DNA from: Enhygromyxa salina
GTDB lineage: Bacteria; Myxococcota_A; Polyangia; Nannocystales; Nannocystaceae
Reading direction: 5' to 3'
Length of the DNA: 64,000 nucleotides
NCBI RefSeq assembly: GCF_002994635.1
Contig: NZ_PVNL01000139.1
Location: 82,055 to 146,054, forward strand
The notes below the pieces were generated by a model. That model was given only the letters and a program-made list of their open reading frames with translations. It did no database searches and was not told the DNA's origin. The translations under genes were made by a program, and so were the position numbers. Positions 12,500 through 57,360 of the stretch are shown here, one piece after another (the first letter of the stretch is position 1; each line of letters starts with the position of its first letter).

Positions 12500-12500
12500 C

Positions 12501-15629: not shown

Positions 15630-15645
15630 CAGCTCGTCTGTCGAG

Positions 15646-15909: not shown

Positions 15910-15979
15910 CGCAACCCGCAGCAAGGGCGACCCCGTGAATGGGGCGACAGGCCGGCGAGCCCTGGGTCGGCCCGCGTGT

Positions 15980-36237: not shown

Positions 36238-36272
36238 CCGCGATCACAGCCTATACTCTGGGGTCTCTACTC

Positions 36273-37625
36273 ATGCGCCGCTTCGAATATCGCGATCAAA
36301 AATCCAACAAGTTCTGGCAGATCGATCAGCAAGGGAGCGAGGTCACCACGCAGTGGGGCCGGATCGGCACCGACGGGCAGTCCAAGACCAAGGCCTACGC
36401 AACGGCTGCCAAGGCTCAGGCTGACGTTGACAAGCAGATCCTGTCCAAGCAGGGAAAGGGCTACGTCGAGTCGGATGACGCCAGTATGCCCATGGCCGCC
36501 GCGCCCGCGCCTGCCACCGCCGCGGCAACCACCGCGCCCGCGTCTGCCACCGTCGCGCCCGCGCCTGCCACCGTCGCGCCAGCCACCACGGACCCGCTGC
36601 CCGACGGCGCCGAGGCGAGCGTCAAGGGCTCAGGCTCGAGCGTCTACACGCTGCGCAACGTCGGCGGGGTGTACTCGTGCACGTGCCCGGCGTGGCGCAA
36701 CCAGTCGCTGGCCATCGACCGCCGGACCTGCAAGCACCTTCGCAACCTCCGGGGTGAGGCCGCCGAGCACGCCCGGCTGCAGGGCGTCGGGGCCACGCTC
36801 CCGCAGCGAGCCGTCGTCGCCGCCGACGCGCCCGCGCTGCTGCTCGCGCACCGCTGGGAGCAGCAGGATCCCACCGGCTGGTGGATGAGCGAGAAGCTCG
36901 ACGGCGTGCGAGCGTACTGGGACGGCAAGGGCTTCGTCTCGCGGCTCGGCAACGGGTATCTGGCCCCGGCGTGGTTCACCGAAGGTCTGCCCAATTTTCC
37001 GCTCGACGGCGAGCTGTTCGCCGGCCGCGGTCGGTTTGCCCAGGCCGTCTCGATCGCCCGGCGGGCCGACGCGGGCGAGGCCTGGCGATCGCTCTCGTTC
37101 GTGATCTTCGATGGCCCCGGCGCAAGCGGGGGGTTCGAGGCTCGCATCGCCGAGCTCGAGGAACACTTCCGCGCGAGCCCGTGGGCCCACGCCAGCGTGC
37201 TCGCGCATCGCGTGTGCACGGGCCTCGCGGATCTGAACGCCGAGCTGAAGCGGGTCGAGGCGCTCGGCGGCGAGGGCCTGATGCTTCGCAAGCCTGGCTC
37301 AGCGTACGTGGCCGGCCGGTCCGACACGCTGCTCAAGGTCAAGACCTTCCTCGACACCGAAGCGCGGATCGTTGGCTACCAGCCGGGCACCGGTCGCCAC
37401 AAAGGTCGGCTCGGGGCCCTGATGCTCGAGCTCCCCAACGGCACGCGCTTCAAGGTTGGCACCGGGCTGTCCGACGCCGAGCGTGACAACCCGCCCGCGG
37501 TCGGCGAGATCATCACGGTCCGCTATCAAGAGCTGACCGACGCAGGTGTGCCACGGTTCCCCAGCTACATCGGCGTGCGCGGCGACTTTGACTGGGACGC
37601 TGCCGTGGCGGCCGGAAGCGACTGA
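36273..37625 (+). CDS. ATP-dependent DNA ligase with N-terminal WGR domain and SWIM zinc finger
   Basis: MRRFEYRDQKSNKFWQI...WGRIGTDGQ (WGR). CTCPAWRNQ...CKHL (SWIM CxC...CxH). EKLDGVRAY (ligase motif I, KxDG), followed by the adenylation and OB domains. Confidence 0.8.
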   Translation: MRRFEYRDQKSNKFWQIDQQGSEVTTQWGRIGTDGQSKTKAYATAAKAQADVDKQILSKQGKGYVESDDASMPMAAAPAPATAAATTAPASATVAPAPATVAPATTDPLPDGAEASVKGSGSSVYTLRNVGGVYSCTCPAWRNQSLAIDRRTCKHLRNLRGEAAEHARLQGVGATLPQRAVVAADAPALLLAHRWEQQDPTGWWMSEKLDGVRAYWDGKGFVSRLGNGYLAPAWFTEGLPNFPLDGELFAGRGRFAQAVSIARRADAGEAWRSLSFVIFDGPGASGGFEARIAELEEHFRASPWAHASVLAHRVCTGLADLNAELKRVEALGGEGLMLRKPGSAYVAGRSDTLLKVKTFLDTEARIVGYQPGTGRHKGRLGALMLELPNGTRFKVGTGLSDAERDNPPAVGEIITVRYQELTDAGVPRFPSYIGVRGDFDWDAAVAAGSD

Positions 37626-37710: not shown

Positions 37711-39532
<1,822 letters not shown>

Positions 39533-39536
<4 letters not shown>

Positions 39537-39871
39537 GCAAGAACGCCGCCGAGCCCGAGCCCGCGCCCGACTCCGAGCCGTCGAGGGCCGATCGGCTCGC
39601 GCGGCAGCTCGAGCAGCAGGCCCGCCGACACCAGCGCAACAATCGTGGGCGGGCGCCTAGCCTGTGGCAGCAGGTCGCCCGGGTCGGCACGCTGGGATGG
39701 ATGATCGTGCTGCCGATCGTCGCTGGCGCGTTGGTCGGACACCTGCTCGATCTCAGGTTCGACAGCGGGGTCCGCTGGGCGCTGGCGCTGATGTTCCTGG
39801 GTCTGATCACCGGTGGCTACGCGCTGTACCGAGCAATGCAAGAGGGCATGGCCAGCCGAGGTGAGCGATGA
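39533..39871 (+). CDS. atpQ: N-ATPase accessory membrane protein AtpQ (AtpI/AtpZ-like)
   Basis: A 112-aa protein with two TM helices, at the characteristic position between epsilon and AtpR. GTGA/ATGA coupled. Confidence 0.6.
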
Positions 39872-40152
39872 CGGCTGAAGGGATCGCGCTGGTGCTGGCC
39901 GGGCTCACGATCGGGATCGCAGCTGGCAACATTTACCTGTCGATGCTGCGCCGGGCGATCTGCACGCTGATCGAGCAGCGCAAGCGCACCAGCATGCTGT
40001 GGAGCGCACCCGCCCGGGTCGCCCTGCCCGCGGTCGCGCTCGCGCTCGCAGCACGGTGGGATCGGCTGGCCCTACTCGGCGGCGTCGTCGGCCTGTTGGC
40101 CACCCAGTTCACGGCGCAGCTCTTGGCCCGAACCAAAGGCGTCGGGCCTTGA
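39868..40152 (+). CDS. atpR: N-ATPase subunit AtpR (small 2-TM protein with a conserved Arg)
   Basis: A 94-aa protein with two TM helices and an Arg in the membrane span. ATGA-coupled upstream. Its stop overlaps the atpB TTG start. Confidence 0.6.
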   Translation: MTAEGIALVLAGLTIGIAAGNIYLSMLRRAICTLIEQRKRTSMLWSAPARVALPAVALALAARWDRLALLGGVVGLLATQFTAQLLARTKGVGP

Positions 40153-40832
40153 GCCCGCTGTTCAGCCTCGAGCTGCTCGGCCTGACGATCACCGACACGG
40201 TCATCGTCAGCGTCGCGCTCACGCTGGTCCTGAGCCTCGTGGCGCTGGCCAGCTCGCGCGCGTTCCACCCGACCCGGTTCGGCTTCTGGCAGATCACCGT
40301 AGAGGCCTACGTGGGCTGGATCCGCCGGCTCGTCGGCGAGATCGTCGAGGAGGATCCCGACCCCTACACGCCGCTGATCGGCACGCTGATCCTGTTCATT
40401 GGCGCCTGCAACATGCTCAGCTTGATCCCGGTCGTGCGCCCCCCGACCGCGGACCTCTCGACCACTGTCGCGCTCTCGCTCGTCGTGTTCTTGGCGGTGC
40501 CTGGCTACGGGATCTGGCGGCGTGGGCTGTGGGGCTACCTGAGCAACTACGTGCGGCCGCACCCCTTGATGCTGCCGTTCAACTTGATCAGCGAGCTGAC
40601 CCGCACGCTGGCTCTGGCCGTGCGGCTGTTCGGCAACGTGATGAGCGCGCAGATGGTCGGCGCGGTCATGCTCGTGGTCGCGGGCGTGCTCGTACCGATT
40701 CCCCTGTTGTTGCTCGGGATCATCACCGGGCTGATTCAGGCCTACATCTTCGGGGTCCTGGCTGCGGTGTTCATCGCCGCGGCGGTCCAGATCGAAGAGA
40801 CCAAGTCACCCCCTGCACAGGCAGCATCATGA
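40149..40832 (+). CDS. atpB: F-type ATPase subunit a
   Basis: A TTG start at 40149 (TTGA overlap). The conserved stator Arg sits in the ALAVRLFGNVMSAQMV context. There are five TM helices. Confidence 0.8.
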   Translation: MSPLFSLELLGLTITDTVIVSVALTLVLSLVALASSRAFHPTRFGFWQITVEAYVGWIRRLVGEIVEEDPDPYTPLIGTLILFIGACNMLSLIPVVRPPTADLSTTVALSLVVFLAVPGYGIWRRGLWGYLSNYVRPHPLMLPFNLISELTRTLALAVRLFGNVMSAQMVGAVMLVVAGVLVPIPLLLLGIITGLIQAYIFGVLAAVFIAAAVQIEETKSPPAQAAS

Positions 40833-41083
40833 TGGATCAAACCCTCATCTATCTCATCTCGATCATCGTCGCGGGCGCCACGGTCACGTTCGGCACGATC
40901 GCCCCGGCGATCGCCGAAGGCCGGGCGGTCGTGGCCGCCCTCGATGCGATCGCGCGACAGCCCGAGGTCGCGCCAACCACGACGCGGACCCTGTTCGTCG
41001 GCATCGCCATGATCGAGTCGACCGCGATCTACTGCCTCGTCGTCGCCTTGGTGCTGCTGTTCGCCAACCCGTTCGCGAGCTGA
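40829..41083 (+). CDS. atpE: F-type ATPase c subunit with a complete Na+-binding signature
   Basis: MMDQTLIY...AIARQPE...IAMIESTAIYCLVVALVLLFANPF. Gln, Glu, Ser, Thr and Tyr are all at positions equivalent to the Ilyobacter tartaricus Na+-site residues. ATGA-coupled to atpB. Confidence 0.85.
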   Translation: MMDQTLIYLISIIVAGATVTFGTIAPAIAEGRAVVAALDAIARQPEVAPTTTRTLFVGIAMIESTAIYCLVVALVLLFANPFAS

Positions 41084-41087
41084 AGCC

Positions 41088-41843
41088 ATGCAACTCGACT
41101 GGACCACGGTCGTCTTCGAGCTCATCAACTTCGGCGTGCTCATGCTGTTGTTGACGCGGTTCTTGTTCAAGCCGGTCCGCGAGCTGTTGCTCGAGCGCAA
41201 GCGCGAGGTCGCCAGCGCGCAGGTGCTCGCCGAGACCGCGCGGACCGAGAGTGAGGCTGCCAAAGCCCAGTTCGAGGGGCGCCAACGCGAGCTCGAGGCC
41301 GAGGCCAAGGCGCTGCAGGACCGGGCCAAGGCCGAGGCCGAGCAGACCGCCAACGAGCTGATCGAGGCCGGGCGCGAGGATATTCGACGAGCTCGCGCGC
41401 GCTTCGAAGCCGAGCTCGAGCGCGCCCGGGTCGAGGCGCTGGAGCGTCTGCGGCCCGAGCTGATTCAGCTGACCTTCGAGGCCGGGCGGCGCTTGCTGGC
41501 GGACATGCAGCTGGGCGAGCTCGCGCAGGCGTTCGCCAGCCGCGGCGCTCTCAGCCTCCGCGACGCCCTGGCGGCGGACCAGTCCGACCTGGCCGACAAG
41601 CGCGTGCGCGCGTGGGTGAGCCCGGACGCCGACCTGCACGCGGTGTCACGGGTGCTCGAACAGACCCTCGGAGACTCGCAGCTCGAGCTCGACGTCGACA
41701 GCTCGCTGGTCGGTGGCGTGAAGTTGATCGCGGACGGGGTCGAGGTCGAGGCGAGCGCGGGTGCGTCGCTTGGACGGTGGCTGCGTGAGCAGCTCGGGGC
41801 CTCGCGGTCTCGAGCCGAGCTCGGGCTTGGGGCTGGGTCGTGA
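41088..41843 (+). CDS. atpF: F-type ATPase subunit b (long, N-ATPase type)
   Basis: An N-terminal TM segment (VVFELINFGVLMLLLTRFLF), then an extended Ala/Glu/Arg-rich coiled coil. The protein is 251 aa. No separate delta gene is present. Confidence 0.75.
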   Translation: MQLDWTTVVFELINFGVLMLLLTRFLFKPVRELLLERKREVASAQVLAETARTESEAAKAQFEGRQRELEAEAKALQDRAKAEAEQTANELIEAGREDIRRARARFEAELERARVEALERLRPELIQLTFEAGRRLLADMQLGELAQAFASRGALSLRDALAADQSDLADKRVRAWVSPDADLHAVSRVLEQTLGDSQLELDVDSSLVGGVKLIADGVEVEASAGASLGRWLREQLGASRSRAELGLGAGS

Positions 41844-43414
41844 AATCGCAGCTGTCCGCGCCCGTCGTTCAGCCTGACAGCGCTGACCCCAGCCGCCTCG
41901 CTCTGACCGATCGCCTCGAGCACGAGGCGCGTCGGGTCGTCGCCGGCTTGCGCGAGGACTTCACCCACCTCCACACGCAGCCAACGGTCGCGCGACTCGG
42001 GCGGGTCGTCGAAGCGGGCGACGGCGTCGCTACGGCGGTCGGGCTCGAGCACCCGGTCGCTGGCGAGCTGCTCGACATCGATGGCGTCCCCGCGCGCGCC
42101 GAGATCGTCTCCGAGGATCAAGTCCGCATGATCTTGTTTGGCGGGAGCGAGGCCGTCGCAGCCGGCGCGCCGGTTCGTCGCACGGGCCGCGTGCTCGACG
42201 TCCCCGCTGGCGTCGAGCTGATCGGGCGGGTCGTCGACGCGCTCGGACGCCCGATCGATCACCGCGGCCGGCTGAACACCCGCAGGCGCGTGCCGATCGA
42301 GGGCGAGGCCGCCAGCCTGGCCGATCGCGAGGCCGTCAGCCGTCCCCTGCGTACCGGGCTGTTCGTCGTCGACACCATGATCCCGATCGGTCGCGGGCAG
42401 CGGCAGCTGATCGTCGGCGATCACTCGACCGGCAAGTCGGAGCTGTGTCTCAACATCCTCGCCGCGCTCGATCATGGGCTGGTCGGGATCTATGTCAGCA
42501 TCGGTCGCCGCGGGGCCGACACCGCCGCGAACCTGGGCTGGCTCACCGACCACGGGTTCTTCCAGCGTGGCTTCGCGCTGGTCGCCAACGCGGATCAGAG
42601 CGTCGGCCTGGTCCAGCTGGCGCCCTACACCGCGATGGCGATGGCCGAGGCGCTCATGCACGAAGGTCGCGACGTGGTCGTCGTGTTCGACAACCTCACC
42701 GCTCACGCCCACGCGCATCGCAGCTTGGCGCTGCTGCTCGGGCGTCCGGTTGGGCGCGAGGCTTACCCGGTCGACGTGTTCTATGCCCACGCTCGGGTGC
42801 TCGAGCGCGCCGGGCAGCTCGGTCGCGAGCGCGGCGGTGGGTCGGTCACCGCGCTGCCGATCATCGAGACCCAGGCCGGGGATCTGACCGCGTACATCCC
42901 CACCAACCTGGTCTCGATCACCGACGGTCAGATCCGCCTCGACGCTGGGCTGGTGTCCGAGGGGCAGGTGCCGGCCGTCGACGTCGCGCTGTCCGTCTCG
43001 CGGGTTGGCAGCAAGGCGCAGCCTCGACTGATCCGCGAGCTGGCCGGCCAGCTCGCGCACCGCTACGCGCAGTTCCTCGAGCTCGAGTCGTTCACGCGGT
43101 TCGGCGCCCGGCTCGAGACCAGCGCCCAGCGCACGATCAACTGGGGCCGACGCGTACGCCGAGCGCTGCGGCAGGGTCGATCCGAGCCGCGCACGTGGGC
43201 CCAGACCGCCGCGACCCTGCTGGTGCTCGACGACCCGCGGATCACTGACGTCGCGCTCGAGGATCTGCGCGCGCTCATCGACTCGGTCTGCACGACGATC
43301 GAGAGCCACCACCTGCACGTGTGGACGCGTCTCGAACTTGGCGACGCGCTCGCGCCCGGCGACAGCGAGCTGGTCCGCGAGGTCGTTGGCGTCGTGCTGG
43401 GGGCGCAGCCGTGA
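41840..43414 (+). CDS. atpA: F-type ATPase alpha subunit
   Basis: GDHSTGKSEL (Walker A-like). Alpha-type N-terminal barrel. GTGA-coupled at both ends. Confidence 0.9.
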   Translation: MKSQLSAPVVQPDSADPSRLALTDRLEHEARRVVAGLREDFTHLHTQPTVARLGRVVEAGDGVATAVGLEHPVAGELLDIDGVPARAEIVSEDQVRMILFGGSEAVAAGAPVRRTGRVLDVPAGVELIGRVVDALGRPIDHRGRLNTRRRVPIEGEAASLADREAVSRPLRTGLFVVDTMIPIGRGQRQLIVGDHSTGKSELCLNILAALDHGLVGIYVSIGRRGADTAANLGWLTDHGFFQRGFALVANADQSVGLVQLAPYTAMAMAEALMHEGRDVVVVFDNLTAHAHAHRSLALLLGRPVGREAYPVDVFYAHARVLERAGQLGRERGGGSVTALPIIETQAGDLTAYIPTNLVSITDGQIRLDAGLVSEGQVPAVDVALSVSRVGSKAQPRLIRELAGQLAHRYAQFLELESFTRFGARLETSAQRTINWGRRVRRALRQGRSEPRTWAQTAATLLVLDDPRITDVALEDLRALIDSVCTTIESHHLHVWTRLELGDALAPGDSELVREVVGVVLGAQP

Positions 43415-44247
43415 CTCGCCACCGGGCGCTCGCGCAGCGGCTCGCGGCGTGGCGCAGCTTTCGGGGCATCGCCCGAGCGGCCCGGACCCTGGCGGCCGCG
43501 CAGGGCCAGCGCTGGTCGGCGCACGCCGAGCAGGCGGCCCGGCATCTCGCGTGGACGCGCGGGCTGATCGAGCACTTTGAAGTCTCGACGCCCGAGCACG
43601 CCGCGCGAGGTGTACTCGTGATCGGCACCGACCTTGGTCTTTGCGGTCGCTTGAACGCGGCCTTGGCTGCGCAGCTGCGGGCGTCGGCGCTGGTCGACGA
43701 GGGCGCGCTGATCGTCGTTGGCGCGCGGCTGCTCGACGAGCTGCGGGACGTCGAGCCGGTGTTCTCGCTGCCTGCTCCCGCCTCGCTCGAGGCGATCGAG
43801 CAGCTGTCGAGCCGGATCGCTACCGCGCTCGAGACCGCGGCGCGCACCGCCGAGCTGCAGCTGTCGATCTTGCTGAGCGCGACCACCACGAACGACGGTT
43901 ACCCGATCCTCGAGATCTGGCGCGAGGGCCCCGAGCTGAGCGAGCTCGCACGGGTCCGCCGCTCGCTCGCGCCACCGATCGTCGACCTGAGCCCGCCCGA
44001 GCTCGCCCGAGAGTCGGTCGCCAGCTTGCACCTTCGCGCTCGCATCGCCCACGCGCTGTGTGTCGCGGCCGCCAGCGAAGCGGCCGCGCGGCTGTTCACG
44101 ATGAGTCGCGCCTACGAGGCCAGCGATCGCAGCATTCGCCAGCAGCAGCTCGACCTGCGCAAGCTCGAGCAAGAGGAGATCACCCAGGACATGCTCGAGG
44201 TCCGCGGCGGACAGCGACCCCGCGGCCGCGAGCGCCGACTAGTCTGA
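43411..44247 (+). CDS. atpG: F-type ATPase gamma subunit
   Basis: A GTG start at 43411 overlaps the atpA stop. The C-terminal helix LFTMSRAYEASDRSIRQQQLDLRKLEQEEITQDMLEV is gamma-like. Confidence 0.75.
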   Translation: MTRHRALAQRLAAWRSFRGIARAARTLAAAQGQRWSAHAEQAARHLAWTRGLIEHFEVSTPEHAARGVLVIGTDLGLCGRLNAALAAQLRASALVDEGALIVVGARLLDELRDVEPVFSLPAPASLEAIEQLSSRIATALETAARTAELQLSILLSATTTNDGYPILEIWREGPELSELARVRRSLAPPIVDLSPPELARESVASLHLRARIAHALCVAAASEAAARLFTMSRAYEASDRSIRQQQLDLRKLEQEEITQDMLEVRGGQRPRGRERRLV

Positions 44248-44315: not shown

Positions 44316-45155
44316 GTGCTCCATACTGCGCCGATGCGGCTCCCTCCCGCCGAGATCGCCCAGCTCGAAGAGCGTCGTCAGGCGCGGCTGCTCGCTGACG
44401 TGACCCCGCTGGTCCAGCCGTTCGCGGGCGGGTTCATGGGCTTTCACGAGCCGGGCTCGTGGCAGAACCAGGCCTGCGGCGTCGGTCTCGCGGGTCCGGT
44501 CGGCGCCGACGAGATCACCAACATGATCGAGTTCTACCAGTCGCGGGGCGTCGAGCCGCGGGTCGAGCTGTCACCCTTCGCCGACGAGAGCCTGGTCGCC
44601 GGGCTCGGTGAGCGTGGCTTCGTGATCCGCGAGTTCGAGCACGTGCTCGCTCGTGAGCTGGACCCAGGCGAGGATCTCGAGGCGGCGCTGCCGTTTGGGC
44701 GGCCCGCCGGGCTCGAGCTGCGCGAGCTCGACCAGGCCGACCGGCCGATGCTCGAGCGCGCGGTCGAGGTCGCGCTGCGGGGGTTCTATCCGACCGGCGA
44801 GATCCCACGCGCGATGTTCGACGCGTGCGTGGCCACCAACTCGATGCCCAACAACCTCACCGTGCTCGCGTGGCTCGACGGCGAGCTGGTGGCCGCGGGC
44901 ACCGTCAGCGTGGGCGGCGAGGTCGCGAGCTTGATGGGGGTCTCGACCGAGCCGCGCGCACGTCGGCGGGGGATCCAGCAGGCGCTGATCGTCGAGCGGC
45001 TCGCGCTGGCCCGCGGGCGGGGGTGCGTGCTCGCGACGATCGGCTCACGCCCGGGGATCCCGACCGAGCGCAACGCGCTGCGGCTCGGGTTCTCGGTCGC
45101 CTACACCAAGGTCATCGTGGTCCGCCCGGGGTCTGGGCTCGCGCGCTCGGTCTGA
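44316..45155 (+). CDS. GNAT-family N-acetyltransferase
   Basis: The acetyl-CoA-binding motif reads MGVSTEPRARRRGIQQALIVERLALARGRG (the Q/RxxGxG/A pattern). The 3' end is duplicated downstream; see the repeat features. Confidence 0.75.
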   Translation: MLHTAPMRLPPAEIAQLEERRQARLLADVTPLVQPFAGGFMGFHEPGSWQNQACGVGLAGPVGADEITNMIEFYQSRGVEPRVELSPFADESLVAGLGERGFVIREFEHVLARELDPGEDLEAALPFGRPAGLELRELDQADRPMLERAVEVALRGFYPTGEIPRAMFDACVATNSMPNNLTVLAWLDGELVAAGTVSVGGEVASLMGVSTEPRARRRGIQQALIVERLALARGRGCVLATIGSRPGIPTERNALRLGFSVAYTKVIVVRPGSGLARSV

Positions 45156-45188
45156 ACCACTTGGGACCAGCGGACGACCCGATCGCCC
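45111..45188 (+). repeat. Direct repeat copy A (~78 bp), overlapping the GNAT 3' end
   Basis: gtcatcgtggtccgcccggggtctgggctcgcgcgctcggtctgaaccacttgggaccagcggacgacccgatcgccca. It shares an identical 26-bp core, ctcgcgcgctcggtctgaaccacttg, with copy B, and ~80% identity overall. Confidence 0.8.
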
Positions 45189-45292
45189 ATGACCGAGCAG
45201 CTCTCCGCGCCGGATGACCCGACCGCGATGAGCGTGGACGGATCAGCCTCGAAGGATCATCGCCGCGATTGTGCTCGTGGGCGACCGACGTG

Positions 45293-47275
45293 TCAGCCGG
45301 CGGTCCGCAGCCGCTCGCGCATGGCCTGCAGCGCAGGCATCTCCCGCAAGCTGCCCAACTCGGCGACGATCAAGTCGAACCAGTTGAGCCCCTCGAGCCA
45401 TGCGCTCGCGCTCTCGCTGGACACGCCCATGTGTTGCAGGGCCTGACAGATGAAGCCCTCCACGTCGCGCTTGTCGGCGGAGTCGTGGTAGCGACCGGCT
45501 TCGATCGCGCTGCGGTGGAAGTTGCAGACCTGCTGCTGCAGCACGCCGAGGTCGTTGGTGCCGAGCACCGCGTTGCCACAGGCTTCATTCAGCAGGTCCT
45601 TGCGCTGCTGTAGCTGGCCATGCAGGTGCTGCAGGTTGGGCTGTGCCCACTTGTCTCGCAGCTGCTGTCCGAGCCACTCCCAGGCTCGTGTACAGGCTTC
45701 GGCGGCGACCTCGGGAGAGTCATCGATGCCGGCGATCTGGTTCGACTTGCCGACTTTGCTCAGCAGTGGCCCGAGCCGAGGTCCGCCGGATAGCAGTACG
45801 GCCTCCGCCGTGCGCGCGGCCCAGAAGCTGGTCGTGAGTGCGAACTTCCTCTCGAGTGCTTCGGCGATGGCCTCGGCATGCTCGCTCGTGAGCAGATCGC
45901 GATCGAGGATCAGATGAGCCTTGTCCCAGATGCTGCGATCGTTGCGGATTTCCTGGAGCACGACCCGCAGCGCGGCGAGCGAACGCAGTCCGCCGTCGAT
46001 GCCATTGAAGCTCCAGTACATGGCTTTCTCGCGCGGCCGACCGAGGCGATCGATCTCCAACATGCGGTCGATCAACGCCGCGTCCAAGGGCCCCTCGACG
46101 AGCAGGAAGTGCTGGGCCTCGAGCGCGTTGAGAAAGTCGAGGGCGGTCTCGGCCCCAATCGACGACAGCACGCTGCGCAGCGGCGAGGCGATGAGTCCGT
46201 GCTGGCGGCCTTTGGCGACAACTCGTTCGCTGGCGACTGCCCGAAATTCTCGTGGGGCGTCATCGGGCGCCGGCGCGAGGTGGAACACGCGATCCCAGCT
46301 CACGTTGCGCAGCAGCGACTCGTTGTGCGTGGTTGCGAACACCTGCGCATGCTGAGCGCGGTCTTCGATGACCTCGAGCAGACGTCGCTGGATGTCGCGG
46401 TGAATGTGCGAGTCGGGCTCATCGAGCAGCACGAGGTCGAGATCCGAGGGGTCCAAATACAGGTTGAGCAACACCTCGATGATCTGCAGCGAGCCGCTAC
46501 CGAGCAGCGAGATGTCGCGCAGACGGTCGCGCTGGCTGCTGCGGGCGAGCACCTGCACACGCACATTGGTGTTGGGATCGCCGTGAACCTCGATGTCGAG
46601 TTGACCGGTCGCGCCAGTCAGAATTTGGCTGACGTCGTCCTTGAAGCGCTGGAAGTCGTTGGCGCGGGCGTGGAGCCGAAAGATACGGTTGCGCAGCACT
46701 TCGGCCGAACGGCGCTGACGGATCAGGTATGTGGTCTTGCCCGGCGTCAGGAACTCTTCAGTCGTCAGCACGGCCGCGACCGGCGACGCAAACAAGACTC
46801 GAAAGGGGTGTGGCCAAGCCTGACAGCTGGCGTTGAGGCGAGGGTTGAGCTGTTTGGGATTGGCGGCGCCCGACCTGAACTCGTAGTTGCCACCACGTGC
46901 CTTGCGGACCTCCAGAGGGACGTCGAAGTCCCCGTCATCGTCCGCCAGTGTCGCGGTCAACGTCAGCTGACCGCTCTCGCGGTAGAACAGATCGTCAAAA
47001 CCGGGGCTGCGGACCGACACGACCTCGCTGTGATGGACCAGGGCCGAGTCGAGGTACCAGTCCCCACGGCGGACGCCTTGCTTGGAGCTGGCCTTCCCCA
47101 TCTGCGCGCTGATCCGCTCGAAGCTCTCGACCCACAGCGCCAGCGCCTCCAGCACCGTCGTCTTGCCCGAGTTGTTGGGCCCGGTGATCACGTTGACCCG
47201 CGGATGCCAGTGCAAGGTCGCATCGCCGATGGCCTTGAACCCCTGAATCCGAAACGACTTCATCCGCAGCGGCAC
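45293..47275 (-). CDS. OLD-family ATP-dependent endonuclease (N-terminal ABC-type ATPase + C-terminal Toprim), class-1-like single-gene form
   Basis: ITGPNNSGKTTVLEAL (Walker A). LLDEPDSHIH (Walker B/D-loop). ATTHNESL (H-loop). Toprim: FLLVEGPLD (catalytic Glu) and HLILDRDLL (DxD). Confidence 0.8.
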   Translation of the reverse strand: MPLRMKSFRIQGFKAIGDATLHWHPRVNVITGPNNSGKTTVLEALALWVESFERISAQMGKASSKQGVRRGDWYLDSALVHHSEVVSVRSPGFDDLFYRESGQLTLTATLADDDGDFDVPLEVRKARGGNYEFRSGAANPKQLNPRLNASCQAWPHPFRVLFASPVAAVLTTEEFLTPGKTTYLIRQRRSAEVLRNRIFRLHARANDFQRFKDDVSQILTGATGQLDIEVHGDPNTNVRVQVLARSSQRDRLRDISLLGSGSLQIIEVLLNLYLDPSDLDLVLLDEPDSHIHRDIQRRLLEVIEDRAQHAQVFATTHNESLLRNVSWDRVFHLAPAPDDAPREFRAVASERVVAKGRQHGLIASPLRSVLSSIGAETALDFLNALEAQHFLLVEGPLDAALIDRMLEIDRLGRPREKAMYWSFNGIDGGLRSLAALRVVLQEIRNDRSIWDKAHLILDRDLLTSEHAEAIAEALERKFALTTSFWAARTAEAVLLSGGPRLGPLLSKVGKSNQIAGIDDSPEVAAEACTRAWEWLGQQLRDKWAQPNLQHLHGQLQQRKDLLNEACGNAVLGTNDLGVLQQQVCNFHRSAIEAGRYHDSADKRDVEGFICQALQHMGVSSESASAWLEGLNWFDLIVAELGSLREMPALQAMRERLRTAG

Positions 47276-47380
47276 AGCGCGGCGATGGTAGCCAGGGCCG
47301 GGATCGCTGTCGAGCGCGGCGCAAGCACCTACCCGTGCTCGTCATCGACGACGGCAGCGCAGCGCCGGGCGGCCGTGGAG

Positions 47381-47443
47381 CTCATCGTGGTCCGGCCGAG
47401 ACCTCGACTCGCGCGCTCGGTCTGAACCACTTGCAACTGGCGA

Positions 47444-47458
<15 letters not shown>
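47381..47458 (+). repeat. Direct repeat copy B (~78 bp), preserving a GNAT-C-terminus-like reading frame (…IVVRPRPRLARSV*)
   Basis: tcatcgtggtccggccgagacctcgactcgcgcgctcggtctgaaccacttgcaactggcgactacccgatcgcccac. It overlaps the 3' end of the Ser/Thr kinase gene. Confidence 0.8.
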
Positions 47459-48835
<1,377 letters not shown>

Positions 48836-48998
48836 GGGAGTGCTCCGACAAAACGACGTGCGAACCACGGACGGATCGACAGGTCCCCGCAAGTATCGCA
48901 TCTGTGGGTTGCCACCGCGCGTACGACCACACCGTAGTGCAGTTACGGGTGGCGCGCACCGACCGCACGCCACCCGCTGCCTCGGCTACCGGCCCCGG

Positions 48999-50918
48999 CT
49001 AAACATCATGCGACGACGAGATGATCGTGCTGCTCGAACCAGCGCCCCCGCCCTTGGCCTCGCGATACTGCTTGCGGACGATCTCACCCGCGACATCCCG
49101 CGAGCCCAGGCCGAACGCCAGCGCCCCCGCGAGACACAGGCCGCCAAACAACAGCGCGAAGCTCAACAGCACGAACTCGTCCGCGAAACCGAGTTGGTGC
49201 ACGGCCATCGTGAACGCGAACACCAGCACGGCGTAGCGGGCAAACTCGGCCATCCACACCGGGCCCTGCTCCGCGCTCCCCGGTCCGACTGGTCCCGTCT
49301 GTCCCGGCTGTCCCATCTGTCCCATCTGTCCCGGCTGTGCCGTGGGGGGCGGCGCGGCCCTGCGCTGGCGGGTCTCGATCAGATCCCGCACATAGTTGCC
49401 GACCGCGAAGCCGACGCCGACGATCACCAGCGCGACCGCGGCCCGGGTGACCGAGAACACCAACAGCGCGTCGACGTAGCTGGCCCACAGGTCGAGGCTG
49501 AGGCTGTGCAGCGCCTGCGCGAGCGCGAGCAGCACGATCACGATCTGGACCACGAAGCCAGCTAGCCCCGACGGCTTGCCGAGCTCGTCCTCGCGCTCGG
49601 CGATCTGGTTGAGCCCGATCTTCGCCATCCAGCGATCCAGGCCGACGCCCTCGAGGGCCCGCTGGGTGATCCCCCGCGCGAGCCGGCCCACGAACACACC
49701 CACGACCACGATCACGATCGCGAGCAGCAGCGAAGGTAGCATCAGCCAAAACTGCGCCATCATGGCGGTCAGCGGCACCGACAGGGTCTCGAGCCCGACC
49801 GCTTGCAACGCCGCGATCCCGGTCTCGATCAAGATGAACGCCATCGCCAGCCACCCGGCGACCTTGCTCGGCGTCGACTTGCCGAACAGACCCGACAGCC
49901 GCAGCTTGGCGACCAGCGTGTCGAACCCGACAGCCTCGAGCGCGCGCGTGACCACCAGCCGCACGACCTTGGCGAGGATCCAGCCACCAATGCCGATCAG
50001 CGCCGCGACACCGAGCGCCGGAAGCAGGCTCATGATCGAGTTGACGACGTTGCTGAGCGGGCGCGAGATCGCGGGGATCTGCAGCGCGTCGATCGCCCCG
50101 GCGAGCCCAAGCAGAATCACCAGCCAGAACACCACCCTGCCCGCGGTCTCGGAGAACCGGGTGTCCTTGGCTTCGATCTCACCCGCGGCCGCGGTGCTGG
50201 GGCGGACGACGACCTCGGCAGCCGGGACCTGATCGAGCTCCGCGAAGCGCTTGTCGACGCGCGCAATCTGCAGGGCCTTGACGACGACCTTGCTCGAGAT
50301 CAGCGCGACGATATAGGCCGCGACCATGATCAGGATCGCCTTGCCGATCAGCGGCAGCGCCTGCGCCACCGTCGAGACGAACCCCTGAATCGGGGCCGCC
50401 GCCTGCTCGAGGCCGGCGAATTCGAGCACGCCCACCACCACCAGCGCCATCAGCAGATAGAACACGACCTTCGCCGTGATCCGCTCGAGCCGATGGGGAT
50501 CGGCCTGGGTGCCGGTCCTGATCCCCTCCGTGTCATCGACCATCATGTTGATCCCCAGCCGCTTGGCGAGCCGGTTGTCCCAGCTGGTCTTGACCAGGAC
50601 CCGATACACCACCCACGCGAGCAGCTTGGCGATCAGCCAGCCAACGATGAACAGCAGCACACCCGCGAGCAGCTGCCAGCCGACTTGCAGAATGTCGTCG
50701 GACGCGACCGGGCCGACCAGGTCCCGCCACCACTGCGCTGTGAGGATGTCCGGCCGGCCTTGCTCGACGACGACCCGCTCGGCGTCGGGCGGCCCGGCGA
50801 GGGCGAGTCGGGGGACGGCTACCGCCAGCAGGGCGACGGCGCCCATGATGATTCGCTCGAGTCGGTGCAGCATGGTTCTCCTTCGCCTGCGCTCGGGCGC
50901 CTGCGAACGCTCAAGCAT
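48999..50918 (-). CDS. Multi-pass membrane protein built from ~5 repeated helix modules (CmpX / MscS-N-terminal-like). No MscS beta-domain was recognised
   Basis: Recurring modules of the form ...(L/V)AK(V/L)V..(L/V)V.RALE.VG(F/L)D...AK(L/I).L. There is a low-complexity PGQMGQMGQPGQTGPVGPG segment. The real start is possibly the internal Met (MLHRLERIIMGAVALL). Confidence 0.5.
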   Translation of the reverse strand: MLERSQAPERRRRRTMLHRLERIIMGAVALLAVAVPRLALAGPPDAERVVVEQGRPDILTAQWWRDLVGPVASDDILQVGWQLLAGVLLFIVGWLIAKLLAWVVYRVLVKTSWDNRLAKRLGINMMVDDTEGIRTGTQADPHRLERITAKVVFYLLMALVVVGVLEFAGLEQAAAPIQGFVSTVAQALPLIGKAILIMVAAYIVALISSKVVVKALQIARVDKRFAELDQVPAAEVVVRPSTAAAGEIEAKDTRFSETAGRVVFWLVILLGLAGAIDALQIPAISRPLSNVVNSIMSLLPALGVAALIGIGGWILAKVVRLVVTRALEAVGFDTLVAKLRLSGLFGKSTPSKVAGWLAMAFILIETGIAALQAVGLETLSVPLTAMMAQFWLMLPSLLLAIVIVVVGVFVGRLARGITQRALEGVGLDRWMAKIGLNQIAEREDELGKPSGLAGFVVQIVIVLLALAQALHSLSLDLWASYVDALLVFSVTRAAVALVIVGVGFAVGNYVRDLIETRQRRAAPPPTAQPGQMGQMGQPGQTGPVGPGSAEQGPVWMAEFARYAVLVFAFTMAVHQLGFADEFVLLSFALLFGGLCLAGALAFGLGSRDVAGEIVRKQYREAKGGGAGSSSTIISSSHDV

Positions 50919-51016: not shown

Positions 51017-51781
51017 TCAGCTCGGGCCCGGCTCGAGGGCCGCGGCCAACATCCGGGCCTTCTCGGCGATGATCAACGCGCGCACGTGATCTCGAAACGC
51101 CGCCACGTCGCCCTGAAACTGGCTGGGATCGACCGGGTCCATGACCTGCACGTGGCACTTGGCGGCGATCTTCACCCGCAGACCGTGCTTGGGCAGGGTG
51201 TCGGCGGTGCCGGTCAGCACGATCGGATACACCGGACAGTTGGCCTCGATCGCCAGACGAAACGCCCCGTCCTTGAACGCCTTGACCTCGGCGTCGGGTG
51301 AGCGGGTGCCCTCTGGAAACATCAGGATCGGCATGTCCTTGGCGAGCCACGCGTGGCAGCGCTGGCTCATCTCGATGATGCTGGCCTTGTCACCCCGACG
51401 CAGCGGCACGTAGCCGTTGTAGTGCATGTTCCAGCCCAGGAACGGCGACCGGAACACCGCCGCCTTGCTGACCCACTTGTACGGACGATACAGCCCGAAC
51501 AGCACCAAGATATCGCCGAGCGACTCGTGGTTCGAGACCAGCACCGCCTTGCCGCGCCACGGCAGCTTGGCGCGCCCCGTGATCCGCAGCCGCCAAAACG
51601 GGTTGAGGTAGAACATGATCTGGGCCCAGAAGCAGGAGTACAGATGCTGGACCACGCGGCGCCGGTCGAACGGCACCGTGAGCACGAAGCACGCCGTCGC
51701 GCCCAGGAACATCACCATGCAGACGAGCCCGAACGTCAGCCACCACACCGTCGCAAACACGACCTGAGCAGCCTGCCTCAT
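51017..51781 (-). CDS. 1-acyl-sn-glycerol-3-phosphate acyltransferase (PlsC/LPLAT family)
   Basis: An N-terminal TM, then VLVSNHESLGD (HX4D) and MFPEGTRS (the PEGTR motif). Confidence 0.8.
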   Translation of the reverse strand: MRQAAQVVFATVWWLTFGLVCMVMFLGATACFVLTVPFDRRRVVQHLYSCFWAQIMFYLNPFWRLRITGRAKLPWRGKAVLVSNHESLGDILVLFGLYRPYKWVSKAAVFRSPFLGWNMHYNGYVPLRRGDKASIIEMSQRCHAWLAKDMPILMFPEGTRSPDAEVKAFKDGAFRLAIEANCPVYPIVLTGTADTLPKHGLRVKIAAKCHVQVMDPVDPSQFQGDVAAFRDHVRALIIAEKARMLAAALEPGPS

Positions 51782-55189: not shown

Positions 55190-55276
55190 AGCTCACATTG
55201 TACGGGTCCGGTTGTGACGGCGCCACGGTCTGAGCTGGGCTGGTCGGATCCTCGGAGTCCAAGCTAGTCTAGGCCG

Positions 55277-57319
55277 ATGTCCCACCGCTGGTACTGGCCA
55301 CTCATGTGCTCGATGTTGCTCATCGCGTGCGCAGATCCACAGGTCACCGACGACGGCGAGACCAGCAGCGAGACCGGCGACGAGTGCCGGCTCGGCGCCG
55401 AGGACTGCGGGTGCGACCAGGGTTCGTGCGAGTCGGGGCTCGCGTGCGTCGATGACCAGTGCGTGAGCTCCAGCTGCGGCGACGGAGTCGTGCAGGACGG
55501 CGAGCAGTGCGACGACGGCAACCAGGACGACACCGACACCTGCGTGCAGGGCTGCGTCGAAGCGAGCTGCGGCGACGGCTTCGTCGGCCCCGGCGAGGGC
55601 TGTGACGACGGAAACCAGGACAACGCCGACGCGTGCAGCAACGCCTGCGTGCCCACCACGTGCGGCGACGGGATCGTCCAGGAGCCCGAGCAGTGCGACG
55701 ACGCCAACACCGATGAGACCGACGACTGCCTCTCGACCTGCGCGCAGGCCAGCTGCGGCGACGGCTTCGTGCACGAGGGCGTCGAGGCCTGCGACGACGC
55801 CAACGCCAGCGACACCGACGCGTGCCTGACCAGCTGCGTCGACGCGACCTGCGGCGACGGCTTCGTGCACGAGGGCGTCGAGCCGTGCGACGACGGCAAT
55901 GACGTCGACACCGACGCGTGCCTGACCGGCTGCATCGCAGCGACCTGCGGCGACGGTCTGGTCAACGAGGGCGTCGAGGCCTGCGACGACGCCAACGACG
56001 ACAACACCGACGCGTGCACCCAGGCCTGCGAGCTGCCAGCGTGCGGCGATGGGTTCTTGCAGCCCGACGCGGGCGAGCTGTGCGACGACGGCAACCTGAT
56101 CGACGGTGACGGCTGCGAGGCCAGCTGCCTGCCGACCCCCGGCGCGCTCGAGATCGCGGCTGGCAGCCGCCACACCTGCGCGCTGAGCCTGGATCACGAG
56201 GTCCACTGCTGGGGCGCCAACAACTTCGGTCAGCTCGGCCTGCCCGGCGTCGGCACGATCGGCGACGACGAGCTGCCCAACACCGTCCCGCCAGTCGTGG
56301 TCGGCGGTCCCGTGGTCGCGCTCGCCGCTGGCTTCTTGCACACCTGCGCCGTGCTCGAGACCGGCAGGCTGCGCTGCTGGGGGTTCGGCAACGGCGGGGC
56401 GCTGGGCTACGGCAACACCATGAACATCGGCGACGACGAGGACCCCGCGACCGCCGGCGACATCGACATCCCGGGCGACGTCGTCCAGGTCGTCACCGCG
56501 ACCGAGCACACCTGCGCGCTGATCGAGGGCGGCGCGGTTCGCTGCTGGGGCTCCGGCACGGCCGGCAAGCTCGGGCTCGGCAACACCACTTTCATCGGCG
56601 ACAACGAGCTGCCCAACACCGTCGGCCCGCTCAACCTCGGCGGCACCACCGTGCAGATCGCCGCGGGGGCCGTGCACACCTGCGCGCTGCTCGATACCGG
56701 CGAGGTCCTGTGTTGGGGCCAAAACAGCAACGGTCAGCTCGGCTATGGCAACACCGCCAGCGTCGGCGACAACGAGACGCCGGCCTCGGTCGGTCCGGTC
56801 GACATCGGCGCCGTCGCAATCCGTGTTGCGACCGGCTGGCAGCACACCTGCGTGATCACGGACACCCAAGCCGTACGCTGCTGGGGCAACGGCGGGTTCG
56901 GTCGGCTCGGCTACGGCGACACCGTCACGATCGGCGACGATGAGCCACCCAGCAGCGTCGGCGACGTCGACCTCGGCGGCGGCCTCGCGACCGGGTTGGT
57001 GCTCGGCGACACCCACACCTGCGCGTTGCTCGACGACGGCGCGGTCCGCTGTTGGGGTCGCAGCGACCGCGGTCAGCTCGGGTATGCCAACACCAGCTCG
57101 ATCGGCGATGACGAGCTACCCAGCGCCGTCGGGGCGGTCGAGATCGGCGGCGTCGTCACCCAGCTGTCCAGCTTCTACCAGCACAGCTGCGCGCTGCTCG
57201 GCAACCACGCCGTCCGTTGCTGGGGCCGCAACTCCAACGGTCAGCTCGGCTACGGCGACACGATCACGATCGGCGACACCGAGGTGCCCGCCAGCGTCGG
57301 CGATGTGCCGTTCTTGTAG
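55277..57319 (+). CDS. Lipoprotein with ~8 myxobacterial Cys-rich CGDG repeats followed by ~7 RCC1 (beta-propeller) repeats
   Basis: Lipobox LLIACA. Repeats of C..(A/S)CGDG(F/I)V..GE.CDDGN.D.TD.C. Then [27 protein letters not shown]-type RCC1 blades. The DNA itself shows ~105-bp tandem periodicity over ~55440-56150. Confidence 0.8.
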
Positions 57320-57360
57320 CGGTCTGGTAGCCTACGCGGCGACCCACCGACGAGGAACGC

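What the first reader, a model, noticed from the sequence alone, without database searches (positions are those of the whole stretch)
45111..47458. Single-gene OLD-family nuclease cassette flanked by ~78-bp direct repeats that duplicate the 3' end of the GNAT gene (putative mobile anti-phage defence islet)
Seen: two imperfect direct repeats with a 26-bp identical core bracket 2.2 kb. This 2.2 kb contains only one gene: a 660-aa protein with ABC-ATPase Walker A/B/H motifs and a C-terminal Toprim (VEG...DRD). Copy A forms the last 15 codons of the GNAT gene. Copy B retains the same reading frame (…IVVRPRPRLARSV-stop), as expected for an insertion that regenerates the target gene's 3' end (attL/attR-like). 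No integrase or transposase lies between the repeats. Established: OLD-family nucleases (P2 Old, class-1 OLDs, Gabija GajA, PARIS AriA/B relatives) are anti-phage or exclusion factors that often sit in defence islands. Inference: a minimal defence cassette, acquired by site-specific or homology-mediated insertion at the GNAT 3' end. It may be mobilisable in trans.
Basis: partly seen in the sequence, partly recalled or inferred. Interest (0 to 1): 0.65.

Follow-up and report, generated by a model that had tools for sequence, protein, structure and literature searches.

The report
Solo OLD-like nuclease gene insertion
A single gene for an ATP-driven nuclease of the phage-defence "OLD" type has been inserted between two converging Enhygromyxa genes, and about 81 bases of the junction are repeated on each side; this is a tidy but fairly ordinary example of how a lone defence gene lands in a chromosome.

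Summary
Window 45109-45189 and 47379-47458 are direct repeats, 84% identical, with a perfect 26-nt core, and they bracket 2.2 kb holding one gene. The repeat covers more than the GNAT 3' end. It spans the GNAT end, the 18-nt spacer and the last codons of the converging Ser/Thr kinase, so both genes stay intact.

Homologues always stand alone and in a different neighbourhood each time. None has flanking repeats. The insert carries its own conserved promoter and a 50-nt frameshifted piece of a glycosyltransferase gene that neighbours the closest homologue, which is a scar of a former location. The whole 64 kb contains no integrase, transposase or tRNA.

No close relative exists in the collections, so no empty site could be found. 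An insertion is well supported. The mechanism is unresolved: single-crossover integration of DNA carrying a diverged copy of the junction is favoured over duplication in place followed by drift. Present mobility and a defence role are both inferred, not shown.

The parts
44334..45155 (+). GNAT N-acetyltransferase gene (273 aa as deposited; the ORF opens at 44316). Its last 15 codons and stop lie in repeat copy A.
   Evidence: Pfam Acetyltransf_1. 100% identical to P0121, 'GNAT family N-acetyltransferase [Enhygromyxa salina]'. Orthologues end in the same ...VRPGxxLARSV*.
45109..45189 (.). Repeat copy A (81 nt). It holds the native GNAT 3' end, the 18-nt spacer and a stop-less copy of the kinase 3' end.
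   Evidence: translation.
45138..45163 (.). Perfect 26-nt core in copy A, the candidate crossover segment.
   Evidence: two matches in the window, 0 expected.
45190..45292 (.). 103-nt spacer of unknown origin between copy A and the stop of the nuclease gene.
   Evidence: No similarity to any fetched locus or to the rest of the window.
45293..47275 (-). OLD-like ABC-ATPase/Toprim nuclease gene (660 aa from GTG 47275; 656 aa from ATG 47263).
   Evidence: Pfam AAA_21 at 5e-22 and AAA_15. PADLOC AriA, mad3 and GajA models match the ATPase part only. AlphaFold2 pLDDT 89.6. Fold matches. dN/dS 0.17 against L005.
47159..47182 (-). Walker A motif GPNNSGKT (residues 28-35 in 656-aa numbering). Walker B D281/E282 lies at 46418-46423.
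   Evidence: Invariant columns in the 77-sequence alignment A2; sequence.
45803..46096 (-). Toprim catalytic core: E390 (46094-46096), D394, D454 (45902-45904), D456 (45896-45898), T485, E487 (45803-45805). The invariant K598 in the C-terminal helical bundle is at 45470-45472.
   Evidence: Invariant or nearly invariant in A2 and A4. They correspond to the OLD metal A, metal B and basic residues described in PMC7049728.
47285..47313 (-). Sigma-70-like promoter TCGACA-N17-TACCAT belonging to the nuclease gene.
   Evidence: Scan hit, 2 found against 0.1 expected. The same element is conserved upstream of homologues in L005, L012, L016, L013 and L020.
47309..47357 (+). Frameshifted fragment of a family-2 glycosyltransferase N-terminus (...HLPVLVIDDGS), left over from the cassette's former neighbourhood.
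   Evidence: 92% identical to L005 1-50, the 5' part of the GT2 gene that lies divergent from the closest homologue. L005 51-181 is missing in the window, and the breakpoints share a 7-nt GCTCGAC.
47379..47458 (.). Repeat copy B (80 nt). It holds a non-functional GNAT 3' end copy, the spacer and the native kinase 3' end.
47408..47433 (.). Perfect 26-nt core in copy B.
47444..48973 (-). Ser/Thr protein kinase gene with a C-terminal hydrophobic tail. Its last 4 codons and stop lie in copy B.
   Evidence: Pfam Pkinase 1.9e-39. The orthologue in L021 ends ...GGWVFWAVG*, so this end is native.

Best explanation
The segment from about 45190 to 47378 is DNA that was inserted into the short spacer between two converging chromosomal genes, GNAT and a Ser/Thr kinase, in an Enhygromyxa salina genome.

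What the insert carries. It holds one self-contained gene with its own conserved promoter. The product is a stand-alone OLD-like enzyme. The N-terminal part is an ABC-type ATPase with Walker A, a signature-like GSGxxQ, Walker B and an H-loop. The C-terminal part is a Toprim nuclease whose invariant residues form the OLD two-metal site: E390, D454 and D456 for metal A, D394, T485 and E487 for metal B, and a lysine (K598) contributed by a C-terminal helical bundle.

Inferred function. As in P2 Old, Vibrio OLD, GajA and PARIS, the ATPase acts as a sensor or switch. The Toprim domain cuts nucleic acid, either DNA or possibly tRNA as AriB does, when a phage cue appears. This limits phage spread.

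Inferred mode of arrival. The incoming DNA, probably a circular molecule from another Enhygromyxa lineage, carried a diverged copy of the same GNAT/kinase junction. It recombined with the resident junction by a single crossover inside the 26-nt identical core. That leaves hybrid copies of the junction on both sides, analogous to attL and attR, and keeps both host genes intact. The crossover could have been made by RecA on the short identity or by a site-specific recombinase encoded elsewhere or since lost.

Present state. The insert has no recombinase and carries deletion scars: a glycosyltransferase fragment and a 131-nt deletion. It is best seen as a fixed, decayed insertion and not as an active element.
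For: Shown:
- The repeat structure and its statistics.
- Both host gene ends are native. GNAT orthologues end in the same LARSV-stop, and a kinase orthologue ends in W-A-V-G-stop.
- The insert shares with the locus of its closest homologue (L005, 80% aa) the gene, the promoter region (87.5%) and 50 nt of the neighbouring GT2 gene (92%). The DNA therefore came from a different neighbourhood.
- Homologues sit alone in six further distinct contexts with no conserved partner gene. Their GC is below that of the flanks in 5 of 6 loci.
- The promoter is conserved across lineages.
- The gene is under purifying selection (dN/dS 0.17).
- ATPase matches, Toprim fold matches, invariant catalytic residues mapped onto the PMC7049728 description, and sub-threshold OLD-like_TOPRIM, Toprim and DUF3226 hits at the same place in relatives.
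- One relative lies in a Pseudomonas defence island.

For a single crossover with a diverged junction:
- The differences lie in two blocks either side of a perfect core and are not spread evenly (p about 4e-4).
- The GNAT-like arm of copy B differs from copy A at 7 of 47 positions. The true orthologue in L002 differs at 6 of 47 over the same stretch.
- The arm keeps an open frame. Three of its differences from copy A match states seen in orthologues.
- The GT2 scar that travelled with the gene is little decayed (3 substitutions and 1 deletion in 50 nt). The non-functional repeat arms differ at 13 of 55 positions.
Against: - No empty site, no second occupied site and no circular form could be observed. 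The nearest relatives in every collection are too distant.
- No recombinase is present in 64 kb.
- The GT2 fragment shows that the cassette is not a cleanly bounded element. For the incoming DNA to carry a copy of this junction, an earlier insertion at the same site in another lineage is needed, and that is unobserved.
- A column-by-column test did not show that the copy A/B differences fall preferentially at positions that vary among orthologues (Fisher p = 1).
- The contrast between GT2 decay (4 of 50) and repeat divergence (13 of 81) is not significant on its own.
- The composition of the gene is not an outlier in the window.
- The nuclease half fails every HMM library tried.
- A defence function is inferred from family resemblance only. 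The family is absent from phage records and nearly absent from plasmids.
Confidence: 0.5

Rival explanations
1. Duplication in place. The cassette was copied or ligated into the junction by an illegitimate event, such as a replication template switch or repair of a staggered break. That event duplicated about 81 nt of target. The two copies were identical at first and have since diverged, with patchy gene conversion keeping the core and the outer segments identical.
For: - The insert carries a truncated piece of a neighbouring gene and a microhomology-bounded 131-nt deletion. These are typical of illegitimate joining and not of precise site-specific recombination.
- There is no recombinase anywhere in the window.
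- No other homologue has flanking repeats, so this looks like a one-off accident.
- Repeat divergence (13 of 81) and GT2 scar divergence (4 of 50) are not statistically distinguishable.
Against: - Neutral drift should scatter the differences. Instead 12 of 13 lie in two 13-nt blocks around a perfect 26-nt core (p about 4e-4; a run of 26 or more identical positions has p = 0.055).
- The decayed GNAT arm has no frameshift or stop in 15 codons.
- An 81-nt target duplication is far longer than those made by known transposases.
Confidence: 0.25
2. Remnant of a larger integrase-bearing island, that is, a cis-mobilizable element. A genomic island integrated site-specifically at the GNAT 3' end and carried a replacement gene end in its attP. 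Later deletions removed the integrase and most of the cargo, leaving attL, one gene and attR.
For: - The layout is attL/attR-like: a perfect core, imperfect arms and a regenerated 3' end for the target gene.
- The GT2 fragment abuts copy B exactly where the homology begins (47357 to 47379). This is as expected if a deletion running from inside GT2 trimmed the island up to attR.
- CIMEs are defined as elements that lost their integration and transfer genes but kept attL and attR (PMC5704250).
Against: - No integrase remnant was detected in the insert, whose 2.2 kb is fully accounted for.
- No related island with an integrase was found at any homologue locus.
- In L005 the GT2 gene looks like ordinary chromosomal context.
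- The repeat also duplicates the end of the kinase gene, which an element targeting the GNAT 3' end does not need.
Confidence: 0.15
3. The repeats are a functional dispersed element (a terminator or REP-like sequence) that happens to flank a long-resident gene. On this view nothing was inserted.
For: Copy A can fold into a hairpin just after the GNAT stop (-32.5 kcal/mol, z = -2.4).
Against: - There are only two copies in 64 kb and none in the metagenome scan for the core.
- Copy B does not fold better than shuffled sequence.
- No intrinsic terminator was found, and there was no Rfam hit.
- The repeat consists mostly of the coding ends of two genes.
Confidence: 0.03
4. The protein is a housekeeping DNA-repair ATPase, as its GenBank name 'recombination protein F' suggests, and not a defence nuclease.
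For: - There is weak N-terminal similarity to RecF, SMC and Rad50.
- In one lineage the gene sits stably among housekeeping genes in 23 contigs.
- The family is essentially chromosomal.
Against: - The RecF match covers only about 45 residues of the P-loop and scores 37 bits against a cut-off of 172.
- The protein has a Toprim nuclease half that RecF lacks.
- Its distribution is patchy, at about 100 clusters at 50% identity among 1.84 billion proteins, and its context differs in every lineage.
- Its best ATPase matches are defence ATPases: AriA, mad3, AbiLi, GajA and PtuA.
Confidence: 0.07

Closest known systems
Class 1 OLD family nucleases (P2 Old, Thermus scotoductus OLD 6P74, Vibrio cholerae OLD, E. 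coli YbjD)
   Same: It is a single gene with no conserved partner. [quoted passage not shown] Foldseek aligns the full-length model to 6P74 over 601 columns (E = 2e-11). The definitions come from PMC7049728, PMC10568477 and PMC12392090.
Class 2 OLD nucleases / Gabija GajA (C-terminal regions 6NK8, 6NJW)
   Different: There is no UvrD-like helicase (GajB) next to this gene or next to any of the eight homologue loci examined. PADLOC GajA models match only the ATPase part.
PARIS (AriA ATPase plus AriB Toprim/DUF4435; merged AriAB forms)
Cis-mobilizable elements (CIMEs) and genomic islands that integrate into the 3' end of a gene
   Same: The insert is flanked by imperfect direct repeats with a perfect core. 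One repeat copy regenerates the 3' end of the target gene. There are no integration or transfer genes inside (definition in PMC5704250).
   Different: It holds only one gene. It has no detectable relationship to any integrase-bearing element. The repeat also duplicates the end of the second, converging gene. The insert contains a truncated foreign gene fragment. Neither excision nor any second occurrence has been seen.

Membership tests
OLD family nuclease (any class) | N-terminal ABC-type ATPase with Walker A, Walker B and H-loop | tested here: met
   Pfam AAA_21 at 5e-22 (residues 27-322) and AAA_15 at 6.5e-15. G28/K34/T35, D281/E282 and H313 are invariant in 77 homologues.
OLD family nuclease (any class) | C-terminal Toprim fold carrying the OLD two-metal residue set (E; DxD; D/E at +4; S/T-x-E; K/R) | tested here: met
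OLD family nuclease (any class) | Recognised by the family's sequence model (Pfam PF20469 OLD-like_TOPRIM; PADLOC Old or GajA full length) | tested here: not met
   The window protein has no hit at E<=1. Relatives give only sub-threshold hits (E 0.006-0.12, 13-17.5 bits against a cut-off of 23.2). The nuclease half has no PADLOC hit at E<=10.
Class 1 OLD | Single gene, with no helicase, reverse transcriptase or separate Toprim partner adjacent | tested here: met
   The window insert holds one gene. Eight homologue loci show no conserved neighbour. There is no Rfam RNA in the region.
Class 1 OLD | Nuclease half without a C-terminal helical domain; basic catalytic residue in the loop before alpha5 (TsOLD R487) | tested here: not met
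   The model has seven to eight helices after the Toprim strands (residues about 487-655). The only invariant basic residue, K598, lies there.
Class 2 OLD / Gabija | [quoted passage not shown] | tested here: not met
   None in the window locus or next to any homologue. The only UvrD gene seen (L015) belongs to a separate OLD-like gene 3 kb away.
PARIS (Class 4), merged AriAB | AAA_15/21 ATPase together with a DUF4435 (PF14491) Toprim domain | tested here: not met
   The ATPase part is met (PADLOC AriA 6e-23). There is no DUF4435 hit in this protein or in eight relatives, and no AriB or AriAB match for the nuclease half. The fold is nonetheless closest to AriB.
Integrative element / CIME | attL and attR direct repeats flanking the element, one regenerating the target gene's end | tested here: met
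Integrative element / CIME | Derivation from, or mobilisation by, an integrase-bearing element; excision giving an empty site and a circle | not testable with these tools
   There is no integrase in 64 kb. No genome close enough to show an empty site was available. The full source genome was not available.
Transposon / insertion sequence | Transposase gene and terminal inverted repeats with a short target duplication | tested here: not met
   There is no transposase. No inverted repeat joins the two ends of the insert. The duplication is 81 nt.
Dispersed repeat (REP or terminator element) | Many copies in intergenic regions | tested here: not met
   There are two copies in 64 kb and none in the metagenome contigs. 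The rest of the source genome could not be scanned.

The most novel reading that the evidence does not exclude
The cassette may be a minimal, recombinase-free mobile defence unit. It would carry a copy of a conserved converging-gene junction (GNAT end, spacer and kinase end) as its own portable homology. It would move between Enhygromyxa lineages by looping out between its flanking repeats and re-entering by a single crossover on a core of only 26 nt. A second possibility is that its AriB-like nuclease half makes it a one-protein PARIS-type tRNA nuclease from a sequence family that no defence-system catalogue covers.
Probability: 0.15. Interest if true: 0.6.

Novelty: new member of a known kind. 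Interest (0 to 1): 0.3.

Why it matters
This is a clean natural example of a lone OLD-type gene caught at its insertion site, with both junctions and a scar of its previous location still readable. That is useful for understanding how single-gene defence systems spread in large, recombinase-poor chromosomal regions of myxobacteria.

The protein belongs to a compact family of about 100 clusters at 50% identity. It combines the stand-alone (Class 1) gene layout with a Class 2/AriB-like nuclease half. Pfam, PADLOC and NCBIfam models all miss that half, so defence-system surveys probably under-count this family.

Neither point changes current understanding of OLD nucleases or of integrative elements.

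Tried and rejected
**Empty-site search.**
- The genome-contig scan with the GNAT protein gave only two relatives at 81% identity and two more distant ones, all with different downstream genes.
- GNAT homologue contexts found through the look-up of encoding contigs also had different neighbours (L006, L007, L009).
- An exact 22-mer spanning the core and spacer had 0 hits in the metagenome contigs.
- The kinase protein scanned against the metagenome contigs gave a best match of 63%, with no GNAT, OLD or MscS gene nearby.
- The cluster look-up showed that the two members of the protein's cluster are the GenBank and RefSeq versions of the same locus, not a second strain.
- Exact look-ups of the window's own OLD-like and GNAT proteins found no contig on record.

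**Flanking repeats elsewhere.** None of L005, L010, L011 and L012 has a significant flanking repeat. A weak 36-nt match in L005 lies inside the coding regions of both neighbours, is unrelated to the window repeat, and was treated as chance.

**Sequence-level links for the nuclease half.** phmmer and a 17-sequence profile against PDB sequences found nothing meaningful. PADLOC found nothing at E<=10, and no NCBIfam model passed its cut-off.

**Carriage on mobile DNA.** One cyanobacterial plasmid carries a homologue and no phage record does.

**Other checks that came back negative or inconclusive.**
- The origin of the 103-nt spacer 45190-45292 could not be traced. It holds no longer kinase-like remnant.
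- The test of whether the copy A/B differences sit at orthologue-variable columns was not significant.
- A sliding-window comparison with L005 showed no clear mosaic. Identity was 70-89%, highest at the conserved 5' end.
- A first dN/dS run for GNAT used the wrong frame. It was redone.
- The 515-aa plus-strand ORF 45878-47425, which ends in copy B, was rejected as a shadow of the minus-strand gene because it fails the GC3 filter.

Full report
**Source and setting.** The window comes from Enhygromyxa salina, a high-GC marine myxobacterium. The proteins of the locus are 100% identical to GenBank PRP94861.1/WP_106094447.1 and PRP94860.1, both on a 200,418-bp contig. The local gene order is as follows:
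- atp genes at 37.7-44.2 kb;
- a GNAT acetyltransferase at 44334-45155 (+);
- the 2.2-kb segment in question;
- a Ser/Thr kinase at 47444-48973 (-);
- an MscS-like channel at 48999-50918 (-);
- an acyltransferase at 51017-51781 (-).

**The observation.** The repeat is real and far beyond chance.
- Copy A (45109-45189) and copy B (47379-47458) align over 81 columns with 12 mismatches and one gap.
- The 26-nt core occurs exactly twice in the window even when 3 mismatches are allowed, against none expected.
- A blastn of the gene's upstream flank against its downstream flank gives E = 4e-18.
- Copy A provides the last 15 codons and the stop of GNAT. Copy B keeps that frame open (...IVVRPRPRLARSV*).

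Copy B contains the true end (...MWAIG, stop at 47444-47446). Copy A contains a copy in which the stop has become a sense codon. What is duplicated is therefore the whole junction between two converging genes, and both genes stay intact. GNAT orthologues end in the same ...VRPGxxLARSV*, and a kinase orthologue ends ...GGWVFWAVG*. The functional arms are thus the native ones.

**What lies between the repeats.** From left to right the segment holds:
- 103 nt of untraceable sequence;
- the nuclease gene on the minus strand, 45293-47275;
- a sigma-70-like promoter, TCGACA-N17-TACCAT, at 47313 to 47285, which is conserved upstream of homologues in five other lineages;
- a 49-nt stretch at 47309-47357.

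The 49-nt stretch is 92% identical to the 5' part of a family-2 glycosyltransferase gene. That gene lies divergent from the closest homologue of the nuclease gene in a Logan contig (L005, 80% aa identity). In the window this fragment is frameshifted. It lacks the 131 nt that contain the start of the glycosyltransferase gene, and the deletion breakpoints share a 7-nt GCTCGAC. The insert therefore brought along a scar of an earlier neighbourhood. This is the most direct evidence that the DNA was moved here. It also shows that the insert is not a cleanly bounded element.

**The protein.**
- The N-terminal 335 residues are an ABC-type ATPase. Pfam gives AAA_21 at 5e-22 and AAA_15. The best PADLOC matches are AriA, mad3, AbiLi, GajA and PtuA, all confined to this part.
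- No HMM library recognises the C-terminal 320 residues. Pfam gives nothing at E<=1, PADLOC nothing at E<=10, and no NCBIfam model passes its cut-off. Neither phmmer nor a profile search finds a PDB sequence match.
- Relatives give repeated sub-threshold hits to OLD-like_TOPRIM, Toprim and DUF3226 at the equivalent position.
- AlphaFold2 models are confident (pLDDT 89.6 full length, 90.9 for the C-terminal half).
- Foldseek ranks the Xanthomonas and Burkholderia OLD C-terminal regions first. It aligns the full-length model with TsOLD over 601 columns.
- In a 77-sequence alignment the invariant or nearly invariant C-terminal residues are E390, G391, D394, D454, D456, T485, E487 and K598.
- These correspond one-to-one to the OLD catalytic set described by Schiltz et al. 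(PMC7049728). Metal A is Bp E400, D455 and D457. Metal B is Bp E404, T506 and E508. The lysine is Bp K562, from the helical domain.
- The gene is under purifying selection (dN/dS 0.17 against L005).

I conclude that it is an OLD-like ATPase/Toprim nuclease. By gene layout it is Class 1 (alone). By the architecture of its nuclease half it resembles Class 2 and AriB. By sequence it forms a compact family of its own, with 103 clusters at 50% identity among 1.84 billion representatives, nearly all 640-690 aa. The GenBank name 'recombination protein F' rests on about 45 residues around the P-loop and is wrong.

**Genomic behaviour of the family.** The flanking genes at eight homologue loci are:
- L005: glycosyltransferase and VIT/VWA;
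- L010: unknown and M28 peptidase;
- L012: acyltransferase and ivWA-bpMoxR-fvmX7;
- L013: unknown and a laminin-G protein;
- L016-L019: acyltransferase and acyl-CoA dehydrogenase/aconitase, stable across 23 contigs;
- L020: an MVP-like protein and a P450;
- L015 (Pseudomonas): a defence island with nSTAND3-Mrr, PIN_12, an IS110 fragment and a separate OLD+UvrD pair.

There is no conserved partner gene, and no integrase or transposase is adjacent in the myxobacterial loci. The gene's GC is below that of its flanks in five of six loci. In the window the difference is modest, and the gene is not a compositional outlier. Only the window locus has flanking repeats. The family is nearly absent from plasmids and absent from phage records.

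**How the insertion happened.** The whole 64 kb contains no integrase, transposase, tRNA or Rfam RNA. No inverted repeats join the ends of the insert. Two readings remain.

(a) Single-crossover (Campbell-type) recombination. A circular DNA carrying a diverged copy of the same junction recombined with the resident junction inside the 26-nt core. This gives hybrid copies on both sides.

(b) An illegitimate insertion that duplicated 81 nt of target, followed by divergence.

I favour (a) for four reasons:
- The 13 differences are strongly clustered in two 13-nt blocks flanking a perfect core (p about 4e-4), which uniform drift does not predict.
- The GNAT-like arm of copy B has no frameshift or stop. 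It is about as far from copy A (7 of 47) as the true orthologue in L002 is (6 of 47). It shares three states with orthologues that copy A lacks.
- The co-transferred glycosyltransferase scar is only lightly decayed (3 substitutions and a 1-nt deletion in 50 nt). The non-functional repeat arms differ at 13 of 55 positions.
- The layout regenerates both gene ends.

The weaknesses of (a) are real:
- The numbers are small.
- The column-wise test against orthologue variability was null.
- Reading (a) requires an unobserved earlier insertion at the same junction in another lineage.
- The glycosyltransferase scar is more typical of illegitimate joining.

A third variant is a decayed integrase-bearing island, that is, a CIME in the sense of PMC5704250. 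It fits the sharp abutment of the scar on copy B, but nothing found here supports it directly.

**What could not be done.** The decisive test is an empty-site allele in a close relative. It is out of reach with the available collections. The nearest GNAT homologues are 81% identical (dS about 0.4), and the nearest kinase homologue is 63% identical. None shares the downstream neighbour. The core-plus-spacer 22-mer has no match in the metagenome contigs.

**Verdict.**
- The insertion reading is well supported.
- The protein is an OLD-like ATPase/Toprim nuclease from an uncatalogued subfamily.
- Its defence role is inferred from family resemblance and from one defence-island context.
- The claim that this is a mobile, trans-mobilisable islet is not supported by any positive evidence.
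- It is a new member of known kinds (stand-alone OLD-type nucleases; insertions flanked by att-like repeats) and of modest interest.

Noticed in passing
window 57331-58443 (+): A second AAA_21/DUF2813 ATPase (370 aa) is a full-length match to the PADLOC candidate defence protein HEC-01A (E = 6.5e-130). No obvious HEC-01B partner is called next to it. Its neighbours are an RCC1/DUF4215 repeat protein (55268-57319) and a polysaccharide flippase (58445-60136, minus strand).
   Followed up: partly
window 47263-47313 (-) and L005, L012, L013, L016, L020 upstream regions: The nuclease gene family keeps a conserved promoter-like TCGACA/TGGACA-N17-TACCAT/TACCCT about 10 nt upstream of a conserved M/V-P-L-R-M start. 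The transcript would therefore be almost leaderless. In the window the first start codon is GTG at 47275.
   Followed up: partly
window 47309-47357 vs L005 1-50: The glycosyltransferase scar differs from L005 by two non-synonymous substitutions and one frameshifted codon, with no synonymous change in 16 codons. The adjacent nuclease genes differ at 47% of synonymous sites (dS 0.74). This may reflect strong codon conservation at the GT2 N-terminus or a more recent shared history of that end. It is unresolved.
   Followed up: partly
L012 4532-5896 and L016-L019 4042-4896; window 51017-51781: In two separate lineages the nuclease homologue is divergently paired with a PF01553 acyltransferase gene. 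The window also has a PF01553 gene 3.7 kb upstream of the nuclease gene, but in the same orientation and beyond the kinase and channel genes. This is probably coincidence.
   Followed up: no
L012 7992-13986: The 66%-identical homologue lies next to an ivWA / bpMoxR / fvmX7 gene set (a MoxR-vWA type conflict-system module).
   Followed up: no
L015 (Pseudomonas frederiksbergensis chromosome) 375-16157: A 33%-identical family member sits in a dense defence island. The island holds nSTAND3+Mrr_cat, an IS110 fragment, DUF4365, PIN_12, a separate OLD-like_TOPRIM ATPase with a UvrD helicase (Gabija/Class 2 layout) and a CHAT fragment.
   Followed up: no
window 37711-44247 (+): ATP synthase genes run in the order beta ... 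a ... b, alpha, gamma directly upstream of GNAT. This order resembles alternative (N-type) ATPase operons and differs from the canonical F1Fo order.
   Followed up: no
window 31561-33210 (-), 35760-37625 (+), 29462-30925 (+): Three further genes: a DUF2786+DUF7168 protein, a WGR-domain ATP-dependent DNA ligase (OB_2), and a RadA/Sms-like protein. The WGR-ligase ORF overlaps another high-GC3 ORF (35152-36237), so the gene calls here are uncertain.
   Followed up: no
window 45268-45296 (-): A second promoter-like match (CTGACA-N17-CACAAT) overlaps the stop of the nuclease gene and points into the 103-nt spacer towards the GNAT 3' end, antisense to GNAT. Its significance is unknown.
   Followed up: no
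window 45130-45200 (+): Copy A folds into a stable hairpin just after the GNAT stop (-32.5 kcal/mol, z = -2.4). The equivalent part of copy B does not (z = +0.4). The differences in the right-hand variable block create or destroy this stem.
   Followed up: partly
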